Shown here piece by piece: positions 2,947-13,516 of a stretch of DNA of 64,000 bases. A model generated the notes under the pieces. It saw nothing but the letters and a program-made list of their open reading frames with translations. It was not told where the DNA came from and searched no databases. Both the position numbers and the translations under genes were made by a program. Origin of the DNA: Escherichia coli (GTDB lineage Bacteria > Pseudomonadota > Gammaproteobacteria > Enterobacterales > Enterobacteriaceae); NCBI RefSeq assembly GCF_051903065.1, contig NZ_CP178438.1; one strand, 5' to 3'. How positions within the stretch are numbered: position 1 is the first letter of the stretch; each line of letters starts with the position of its first letter.

Positions 2947-4905
<1,959 letters not shown>

Positions 4906-5122
4906 GCTTTTGTTCTCCTTGTAGGATGTTAATAATATGTGGCATAAGCGTTAAATGTAGGGGTATTGGCAGTTTTGTTTAGTATTTGGGCGACAGATCA
5001 CGCAAAAGTAGAATTGTGCAAATAAACGGCAGGGTAATTTTTGAAGGTCAGCAACAAAAGTTGATTAATTCTTTGAGGAACATGCAGTTATGCATGCTGT
5101 TGAAAAAGAGGAAGATACTGAC

Positions 5123-5138
5123 TAACTCTAAAGTGGTA
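5123..5138 (+). promoter_or_regulatory. candidate NarL/NarP 7-2-7 heptamer pair in nrfA promoter
   Basis: taactct-aa-agtggta (right arm = TACCACT on the other strand); centre lies 33 bp upstream of the FNR site centre, matching a -74.5/-41.5 arrangement. Confidence 0.45.
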
Positions 5139-5156
5139 TTTTACATGCACTTACAA

Positions 5157-5170
5157 TTGATTAAAGACAA
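5157..5170 (+). promoter_or_regulatory. candidate FNR site of nrfA promoter
   Basis: TTGATtaaaGACAA resembles TTGAT-N4-ATCAA; about 130 bp upstream of nrfA ATG. Confidence 0.45.
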
Positions 5171-5255
5171 CATTCACAGTGTGGTTATTTGTTACACATA
5201 GGGGCGAGCAATGTCATGACAGTGTAGGTGCGGTTACTGTCGTGAAAAACAATAA

Positions 5256-6734
<1,479 letters not shown>

Positions 6735-13328: not shown

Positions 13329-13368
13329 TTGAAGATTGCCGGGGTTATCCCCCGGCAATGTGTGGATG

Positions 13369-13516
13369 CCTGATGCGACGCTGGTGCGTCTTATCAGGCC
13401 TACGTCAGACAGCGCAATAGCCTGATTTAGCGTGATTTTGTAGGTCGGATAAGGCGTTTACGCCGCATCCGACATCAACGCCTGATGCGACGCTTAACGC
13501 GTCTTATCAGGCCTAC
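13369..13516. repeat. REP cluster between convergent gltP and yjcO
   Basis: Three REP-like palindromes (gcctgatgcgacg...cttatcaggcctac and gtaggtcggataaggcg...cgcatccgaca); preceded by hairpin tgccggggttatcccccggca at 13338-13360. Confidence 0.85.

What the first reader, a model, noticed from the sequence alone, without database searches (positions are those of the whole stretch)
5123..5170. nrfA promoter: FNR-like site and NarL/NarP 7-2-7 site spaced 33 bp apart
TTGATtaaaGACAA (centre about 5163.5) and the heptamer pair taactct-aa-agtggta (centre 5130.5) are 33 bp apart, which is the spacing expected for an FNR site at -41.5 and a NarL/NarP site at -74.5. That puts the transcription start near 5205 and predicts a ~90 nt leader.
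Basis: partly seen in the sequence, partly recalled or inferred. Interest (0 to 1): 0.3.

Follow-up and report, generated by a model that had tools for sequence, protein, structure and literature searches.

The report
Known E. coli nrfA promoter

Summary
The observation and the interpretation are both right, and both are already published. Window 4906-5297 is the acs-nrfA intergenic region and is 100% identical to E. coli K-12 MG1655. TTGATTAAAGACAA (5157-5170, centre 5163.5) and TAACTCT-AA-AGTGGTA (5123-5138, centre 5130.5) lie 33 bp apart. Godfrey et al. 2017 (PMC5434802) place the pnrf FNR site at -41.5 and the shared NarL/NarP site at -74.5. Three numbering anchors in that paper (p+102A, p14C, p3A) put +1 at window 5205, exactly as predicted. 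The leader is 93 nt, because the nrfA ATG is at 5298. Each motif alone is no rarer than chance in 64 kb. The pair at exactly 33 bp arose in only 1 of 300 shuffles. Both boxes keep an unchanged 33-bp spacing in 26 of 29 nrfA loci from six genera, while the DNA just upstream is unalignable between Escherichia and the other genera. Published ChIP-seq puts an FNR peak and an anaerobic-only sigma70 peak within about 20 bp of the site and the start. Novelty: none. The only open item is a side observation: the leader folds into two hairpins kept by compensatory changes, and their role is unknown.

The parts
5123..5138 (.). NarL/NarP 7-2-7 inverted heptamer pair TAACTCT-AA-AGTGGTA, centred at -74.5 (spans -82 to -67)
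   Evidence: Sequence; 12/14 match to TACYYMT-N2-AKRRGTA; position -74.5 stated in PMC5434802. Conserved in Escherichia, Citrobacter, Salmonella, Trabulsiella, Intestinirhabdus and Enterobacter sp.. The variants (TAACCCT..AGGTGTA, TACCCCT..AGTGGCA) keep at most 2 mismatches to the consensus; the Intestinirhabdus variant (TAGCTCG..AGTGGTA) has 3.
5157..5170 (.). FNR site TTGATTAAAGACAA, centred at -41.5 (spans -48 to -35); class II activator position overlapping the -35 region
   Evidence: Sequence; 8/10 match; -41.5 in PMC5434802 and PMC3688515 Table 1. FNR ChIP peak at 4,285,670/671 in U00096.2, about window 5182. TTGAT..ACAA is kept in 28 of the 29 loci, including two genomes that lack the NarL/NarP box; L035 carries TTGAC, and Serratia silvae L038 has no site at this position.
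5190..5198 (+). Extended -10 TG (5190-5191, -15/-14) and weak -10 hexamer TACACA (5193-5198, -12 to -7)
   Evidence: The paper aligns TGnTATAAT with the pnrf -10, and p14C destroys the TG. O157:H7 carries A5198T, giving TACACT, which is the improved EHEC -10. The generic sigma70 scan finds no promoter here, as expected for an activator-dependent promoter. TTGTTAC is conserved across genera.
5205..5205 (+). pnrf transcription start (+1)
   Evidence: Derived from three numbering anchors in PMC5434802: +102 = 5306, -14 = 5191, -3 = 5202. An anaerobic-specific sigma70 ChIP-seq peak at 4,285,698 (U00096.2) maps to about window 5209.
5205..5297 (+). 93-nt nrfA 5' untranslated leader
   Evidence: +1 at 5205 and the ATG at 5298. 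PMC5434802 calls it a long untranslated leader, conserved between species, of unclear role.
5215..5244 (+). Leader hairpin 1 (5215-5224 pairs with 5235-5244)
   Evidence: MFE fold, RNAalifold on 21 sequences and pair counts. Helix 1 has 95% of cells paired and 4 pairs with compensatory changes.
5260..5278 (+). Leader hairpin 2 (5260-5267 pairs with 5271-5278)
   Evidence: helix 3 has 99.3% of cells paired and 3 pairs with compensatory changes. The scan flagged it as a minus-strand terminator look-alike. The frequent G-U pairs would be A-C mismatches on the minus strand, so the structured strand is the nrfA mRNA.
5285..5287 (+). GGA motif in the ribosome-binding region (GGAUGA); a possible auxiliary CsrA contact
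   Evidence: Invariant in all 21 aligned leaders. PMC5434802 notes additional GGA motifs in the leader as possible low-affinity CsrA targets.
5298..6734 (+). nrfA coding sequence; the GGA at 5305-5307 within codons 3-4 is the published CsrA site (p+102A)
   Evidence: NF008339 871.9 bits; K-12 annotation; CsrA experiments in PMC5434802.
2947..4905 (-). acs, the divergent gene that shares the regulatory region
   Evidence: NF001208 1119.7 bits; annotation. The weak divergent acsP1 promoter lies inside the -87 to +10 fragment and is repressed by FNR.

Best explanation
This is pnrf, the single promoter of the E. coli nrfABCDEFG operon (periplasmic cytochrome c nitrite reductase). Without oxygen, an FNR dimer binds TTGATTAAAGACAA centred at -41.5. 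From this class II position, which overlaps the -35 region, it recruits RNA polymerase to an otherwise very weak promoter (extended -10 TG plus TACACA, no usable -35). Transcription starts at window 5205. With nitrite or low nitrate, phosphorylated NarL or NarP binds the 7-2-7 heptamer pair centred at -74.5. That binding displaces IHF from its repressive site between the two boxes, so NarL/NarP act mainly as anti-repressors rather than as direct activators. Fis bound over the -10 shuts the promoter down in rich medium. FNR bound here also represses the weak divergent acsP1 promoter. The 93-nt leader is subject to CsrA repression at a GGA motif just after the start codon. Shown here: the sequence, its coordinates, its identity to K-12, conservation of the sites and their spacing, and the mapping of the published numbering. 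Taken from the literature: FNR dependence, NarL/NarP induction, IHF and Fis repression, and CsrA. Established general knowledge: the class II contact mechanism.
For: Sequence and coordinates. Flanking genes nrfA and acs. Intergenic region 100% identical to K-12 MG1655. PMC5434802 gives FNR at -41.5, NarL/NarP at -74.5, IHF displacement, Fis I over the -10 and acsP1 repression by FNR. FNR dependence is shown by 5119 units in wild type against 54 and 36 units in the two fnr-deleted strains. Numbering anchors place +1 at 5205. ChIP-seq gives an FNR peak near window 5182 and an anaerobic-only sigma70 peak near 5209, with an aerobic/anaerobic nrfA expression ratio of 0.019. The pair at exactly 33 bp occurs in 1 of 300 shuffles. 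The 33-bp spacing is unchanged across six genera, and conservation between Escherichia and the other genera begins at the NarL/NarP box. The core promoter is present in 5413 of 5426 complete E. coli genomes at 95% identity or more.
Against: Nothing contradicts it. Three caveats apply. The primary footprinting and start-mapping papers (Tyson 1994; Browning 2002, 2005, 2006, 2010) could not be read here, so site positions rest on their summary in a later paper from the same laboratory. ChIP peak summits are offset by about 18 bp from the site centre, which is within normal resolution. Converting U00096.2 coordinates to U00096.3 uses the 1977-bp length difference, which I recalled rather than computed. 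The window is not K-12 itself (about 98% identical overall), but the promoter is identical.
Confidence: 0.97

Rival explanations
1. The two motifs are chance matches with no function. Degenerate FNR-like and heptamer-like sequences are common in AT-rich intergenic DNA.
For: Each motif alone, at this mismatch level, is no rarer than expected in 64 kb: 2 against 1.9 expected for the 7-2-7, and 43 FNR-like sites in the window.
Against: The pair at exactly 33 bp occurs in 1 of 300 shuffles. Both boxes and their spacing are unchanged across six genera, while sequence immediately upstream is unalignable between Escherichia and the other genera and the leader length varies. Published genetics and ChIP-seq agree.
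Confidence: 0.005
2. The TTGAT-N4-GACAA site is used by CRP rather than FNR, as for nrfA in Shewanella, where Crp is the main activator.
For: CRP and FNR belong to one family with related half-sites. Crp activates nap and nrf in Shewanella oneidensis (review PMC12285233). The same intergenic region carries CRP-like sites for acs.
Against: The half-site is TTGAT (FNR type), and the spacing is 4 rather than 6 bp between the pentamers. Activity falls about 100-fold in the fnr-deleted strains. There is an in vivo FNR ChIP-seq peak. Induction is anaerobic (ratio 0.019).
Confidence: 0.01
3. NarL/NarP at -74.5 work as direct class I-type activators that contact RNA polymerase, rather than by displacing IHF.
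For: -74.5 lies 33 bp (about three helical turns) from -41.5, so it is on the same face of the DNA as FNR. Such geometry could allow a contact with the alpha C-terminal domain. The strictly conserved spacing fits a geometric requirement.
Against: PMC5434802, summarising Browning 2002, 2005 and 2006, states that FNR alone suffices for maximal induction and that NarL/NarP act by displacing IHF from IHF I. The conserved spacing is equally explained by the need to overlap the IHF I site.
Confidence: 0.1

Closest known systems
E. coli K-12 pnrf (nrfA promoter; Tyson 1994, Browning 2002-2010, Godfrey 2017)
   Same: Identical sequence across the whole acs-nrfA intergenic region, so the FNR site at -41.5, the NarL/NarP site at -74.5, the extended -10, +1 and the 93-nt leader are all the same.
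   Different: Nothing in the promoter. The host strain is not K-12: it is about 98% identical over the window and carries a different sugar island in place of the als operon.
EHEC O157:H7 pnrf
   Same: Same FNR and NarL/NarP boxes and the same spacing.
   Different: O157:H7 has T instead of A at window 5198 (TACACT against TACACA). This improved -10 gives FNR-independent activity and insensitivity to rich medium. The window carries the K-12 allele. The paper prints the EHEC hexamer as TATACT, whereas the O157:H7 genome read here shows TACACT.
E. coli pnir (nirB promoter)
   Same: Another class II FNR promoter (-41.5; PMC3688515 Table 1) induced by NarL/NarP through a 7-2-7 site and repressed by IHF and Fis, with NarL acting by remodelling the nucleoprotein complex (title of ref. 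177).
   Different: As I recall, the NarL/NarP site in pnir is at -69.5 (28 bp from FNR) rather than -74.5. The 33-bp spacing is therefore specific to pnrf and not a family rule. This was not verified here.

Membership tests
Class II FNR-activated promoter | Inverted repeat matching TTGAT-N4-ATCAA | tested here: met
   TTGATTAAAGACAA at 5157-5170 matches 8 of 10 positions. Several genera carry the closer variant TTGATTAAAAACAA, 9 of 10.
Class II FNR-activated promoter | Site centred near -41.5 relative to the transcription start | tested here: met
   Centre 5163.5 and +1 = 5205, from the numbering anchors in PMC5434802. PMC3688515 Table 1 lists nrfABCDEFG at -41.5. The start was not mapped by me.
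Class II FNR-activated promoter | Transcription depends on FNR and anaerobiosis; FNR occupies the site in vivo | not testable with these tools
   Published for the identical sequence: 5119 against 54 and 36 units in the fnr-deleted strains; FNR ChIP-seq peak and an anaerobic sigma70 peak.
Class II FNR-activated promoter | Weak core promoter lacking a good -35 | tested here: met
   The sigma70 consensus scan finds no promoter in 4850-5350. The -10 is TACACA with an extended TG.
NarL/NarP 7-2-7 target | Two TACYYMT heptamers as an inverted repeat separated by 2 bp | tested here: met
   TAACTCT-AA-AGTGGTA, one mismatch in each heptamer.
NarL/NarP 7-2-7 target | Conserved under selection as a unit upstream of the activator site | tested here: met
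   Present at exactly 33 bp from the FNR site in 26 of 29 loci; alignable sequence between Escherichia and the other genera begins at this box.
NarL/NarP 7-2-7 target | Bound by both NarL and NarP; mediates nitrite/nitrate induction | not testable with these tools
   Stated in PMC5434802, citing Tyson 1994, Darwin 1997 and Browning 2002-2006. All pnrf53 derivatives are induced by nitrite.

The most novel reading that the evidence does not exclude
The promoter itself holds nothing new. The most novel reading left open concerns the leader that the finding predicted. The 93-nt nrfA 5' UTR carries two hairpins maintained by compensatory changes across at least six genera, plus an invariant unpaired stretch at +2 to +13 that includes a perfect palindrome TGTCATGACA (+8 to +17). 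Together these could be an uncharacterised post-transcriptional or downstream-operator control element, beyond the single CsrA site already described. It might present the two invariant GGA motifs to a CsrA dimer, or control premature termination or mRNA stability.
Probability: 0.3. Interest if true: 0.35.

Novelty: already known. Interest (0 to 1): 0.05.

Why it matters
As a finding it matters little. pnrf is one of the best-dissected complex bacterial promoters, and the window carries the K-12 allele unchanged. The result shows that a sequence-only reader can recover a real promoter architecture to the base, including the transcription start. The cross-genus comparison adds a clean phylogenetic footprint. 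The 33-bp FNR-to-NarL/NarP spacing never changes while the flanks diverge, and the FNR box persists in lineages that have lost the NarL/NarP box. The one point with research value is the conserved, structured leader, whose function the authors of the most recent study call unclear.

Tried and rejected
1. The first translation of nrfA used the wrong frame. The ATG is at 5298, not 5299.
2. The generic sigma70 promoter scan found nothing in the region. This does not count against the promoter, because pnrf is activator-dependent with a poor -10 and no -35.
3. The scan flagged 5278..5260 as a minus-strand intrinsic terminator. I rejected that reading: nothing converges there, and the covariation includes many G-U pairs that pair only in the plus-strand RNA.
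4. An Rfam search of 4850-5450 at E <= 1 gave no family.
5. The primary papers Browning 2006 (PMC1636288) and Browning 2010 (PMC2897348) are not held. The exact centres of IHF I-III, Fis I-III and the NsrR site could therefore not be checked and are not given as coordinates.
6. A literature search for the small ORF name ytcB returned only Bacillus and unrelated papers.
7. A position-by-position comparison with K-12 over 64 kb was misleading because of indels. BLAST replaced it.
8. Extra NarL heptamers that might mediate nitrate repression: only TACACAT (5193-5199, over the -10) and AGAGGAA (5107-5113) match with one mismatch. I did not interpret them further.

Full report
**What is at the coordinates.** TAACTCT (5123-5129), AA (5130-5131) and AGTGGTA (5132-5138) form a 16-bp inverted heptamer pair centred at 5130.5. 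TTGATTAAAGACAA (5157-5170) is centred at 5163.5. The centres are 33 bp apart. The element lies in a 392-bp intergenic region between two divergent genes. On the minus strand is a 652-aa ORF (2947-4905) that is acetate-CoA ligase, Acs (NF001208, 1119.7 bits). On the plus strand is a 478-aa ORF starting at ATG 5298 that is the ammonia-forming cytochrome c nitrite reductase NrfA (NF008339, 871.9 bits), followed by NrfB. My first attempt used 5299 and was out of frame.

**Identity of the locus.** The stretch 4800-5400 is found in 5413 of 5426 complete E. coli genomes, always between acs and nrfA. The whole intergenic region (4906-5297) is 100% identical to K-12 MG1655. Everything published for the K-12 nrf promoter therefore applies directly. 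The window as a whole is not K-12 (about 98% identity, with an island difference), but that does not touch the promoter.

**Is it more than chance?** Taken singly, no. FNR-like sites with up to two mismatches occur 43 times in the window, against 26.5 +/- 5.4 in shuffles. 7-2-7 sites with up to two mismatches occur twice, against 1.9 expected. Taken together, yes: a pair with centres exactly 33 bp apart appeared in 1 of 300 dinucleotide-preserving shuffles.

Comparative evidence is much stronger. A scan of one genome per species returned 34 nrfA loci, of which 29 have usable upstream sequence.

- In 25 of the 29, both boxes are found by pattern with centres exactly 33 bp apart. One more (L035, with TTGACTAAAGACAA) is found by alignment.
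- These loci cover Escherichia, Citrobacter, Salmonella enterica subsp. arizonae, Trabulsiella, Intestinirhabdus and an Enterobacter sp..
- Over the same set the distance from the FNR centre to the ATG varies from 134.5 to 140.5 bp. Indels are therefore tolerated in the leader but never between the two boxes.
- In the alignment Escherichia and the other genera cannot be aligned upstream of the NarL/NarP box. Conservation between them begins at the box and runs through the FNR site to TTGTTAC at the -10.
- Substitutions inside the heptamers (TAACCCT..AGGTGTA in Trabulsiella, TACCCCT..AGTGGCA in the Enterobacter sp.) keep at most 2 mismatches to the consensus. The Intestinirhabdus variant (TAGCTCG..AGTGGTA) has 3.
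- Two more distant genomes (Entomohabitans and an Enterobacteriaceae MAG) keep the FNR box but have no recognisable 7-2-7 at that distance. Serratia silvae has a different arrangement.

**Mapping the published promoter onto the window.** Godfrey, Lee, Busby and Browning 2017 (PMC5434802) state the following.

- The nrf operon has a single promoter, pnrf.
- FNR binds one site centred at -41.5, which is sufficient for maximal induction.
- NarL and NarP bind the same site at -74.5 and act by displacing IHF from the repressive IHF I site.
- Fis bound at Fis I, overlapping the -10, represses in rich medium.

The figures are not available, but the text gives three independent numbering anchors.

1. 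The p+102A substitution keeps the arginine codon (AGG to AGA) while destroying the GGA motif next to the ATG. nrfA begins ATG ACA AGG, so the changed base is window 5306 and +1 is 5205.
2. p14C disrupts the extended -10 (TGn) at position -14. 5205 minus 14 is 5191, which is the G of TG in TGTTACACA.
3. p3A is a Salmonella-type change at -3. S. arizonae differs from E. coli by g-to-a at 5202.

With +1 at 5205, -41.5 falls between 5163 and 5164, and -74.5 falls between 5130 and 5131. These are exactly the two centres. The -10 hexamer is TACACA (5193-5198), preceded by TG (5190-5191). There is no usable -35, and the generic sigma70 scan finds no promoter, which is what one expects of an activator-dependent promoter.

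**Functional evidence from the literature for this exact sequence.**

- Anaerobic activity of pnrf53 is 5119 units in wild type, against 54 and 36 units in two fnr-deleted strains. All natural variants tested are further induced by nitrite.
- Myers et al. 2013 (PMC3688515) list nrfABCDEFG among operons directly activated by FNR, with a ChIP-seq peak at 4,285,670 and a site at -41.5.
- Their supplementary tables give an FNR peak at 4,285,671.
- They give a sigma70 peak at 4,285,698 that is anaerobic-specific (23 against 401), and a separate aerobic-specific sigma70 peak at 4,285,413.
- They give an aerobic/anaerobic expression ratio of 0.019 for nrfA and 24.6 for acs.

I converted U00096.2 to U00096.3 by adding 1977 bp, the length difference between the two versions, which is my recollection and was not computed here. 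I then converted to window coordinates (record = window + 4,282,466). These peaks then fall at about window 5182 (FNR, 18 bp from the site centre), 5209 (anaerobic sigma70, 4 bp from +1) and 4924 (aerobic sigma70, the acs-proximal promoter).

**Mechanism.** Shown here are the anatomy, its identity to K-12 and its conservation. FNR dependence, the anti-repressor role of NarL/NarP against IHF, Fis repression at the -10, repression of the weak divergent acsP1 promoter by FNR, and CsrA repression at the GGA just after the ATG all come from the literature. From general knowledge of class II CRP/FNR-family activation, an activator centred at -41.5 overlaps the -35 region and contacts RNA polymerase directly, compensating for the missing -35 and poor -10. 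The strictly conserved 33-bp spacing fits the need for the NarL/NarP site to overlap the IHF I target lying between the boxes. A direct same-face contact with polymerase cannot be excluded from sequence alone, but the published conclusion does not favour it.

**Variation.** The core promoter (5118-5210) is 100% identical in 3517 E. coli records and at least 95% identical in all others. O157:H7 differs at one base, A5198T, giving TACACT. This is the improved EHEC -10 that confers FNR-independent activity and insensitivity to rich medium. The paper's text prints it as TATACT, whereas the genome read here shows TACACT. The window carries the K-12 allele.

**Side observations on the leader.** The leader folds into two hairpins. 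On an alignment of 21 leaders from six genera, RNAalifold recovers both.

- 96.3% of cells are paired.
- Eight pairs show changes on both sides, against 3.5 +/- 1.2 in column shuffles (0 of 500 shuffles reach the observed value) and at most 3 in slid controls.
- Frequent G-U pairs show that the structured strand is the nrfA mRNA, not the minus strand on which the scan saw a terminator look-alike.
- Both GGA motifs (5285-5287 and 5305-5307) are invariant.
- So is an unpaired stretch at +2 to +13, part of which belongs to a perfect 10-bp palindrome TGTCATGACA (5212-5221).
- No Rfam family matches.

Godfrey et al. themselves write that the role of the long conserved leader is unclear. This is the only part of the locus with an open question.

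**Verdict.** The feature is already known, and the interest is very low.

Noticed in passing
window 5205-5297 (hairpins 5215-5244 and 5260-5278): The nrfA 5' leader forms two hairpins kept by compensatory changes across six genera: 8 covarying pairs, with 0 of 500 shuffles as high. It has no Rfam match, and the literature calls the leader's role unclear.
   Followed up: partly
window 5206-5221: Positions +2 to +13 (GAGCAATGTCAT) are almost invariant across genera, and +2 to +10 lie outside the hairpin stems. TGTCATGACA at 5212-5221 is a perfect 10-bp palindrome. It could be a downstream operator, since sequences beyond +10 repress the Salmonella promoter, but nothing was tested.
   Followed up: no
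window 5145-5201 (+): K-12 annotates an 18-codon small ORF, ytcB (b4821), here. It covers the FNR site and the -10 and ends at -4, so it cannot be expressed from pnrf. Its ATG is ATA in many Citrobacter and in Salmonella, so conservation here reflects DNA sites rather than coding. No E. coli literature on it was found.
   Followed up: partly
window 5041-5054 and 4987-5002: A second FNR-like site (TTGAAGGTCAGCAA, centre 5047.5) lies 53 bp from a CRP-like site (TGGGC-N6-TCACG, centre 4994.5). This fits the two CRP sites of the acs proximal promoter, which I recall as -69.5 and -122.5. It implies a start near 4925, where an aerobic-specific sigma70 ChIP-seq peak maps (about 4924).
   Followed up: partly
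window 23841-33196: The K-12 als operon and rpiB are replaced by a 9.3-kb sugar-utilisation island. It encodes a D-lyxose/D-mannose isomerase, a ketose bisphosphate aldolase, a kinase, an ABC transporter, a hybrid histidine kinase and a response regulator. The island is present in only 410 of 5426 complete E. coli genomes.
   Followed up: partly
window 13368-13516 and 45163-45662: Short repeated units match several tandem positions in K-12 (downstream of gltP, and between yjdN and yjdM), and the copy number differs between the window strain and K-12. They look like REP/BIME-type intergenic repeats.
   Followed up: no
window 5198: O157:H7 genomes carry T here (TACACT), whereas the paper describing the improved EHEC -10 prints TATACT. 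This is probably a typographical slip in the paper.
   Followed up: yes
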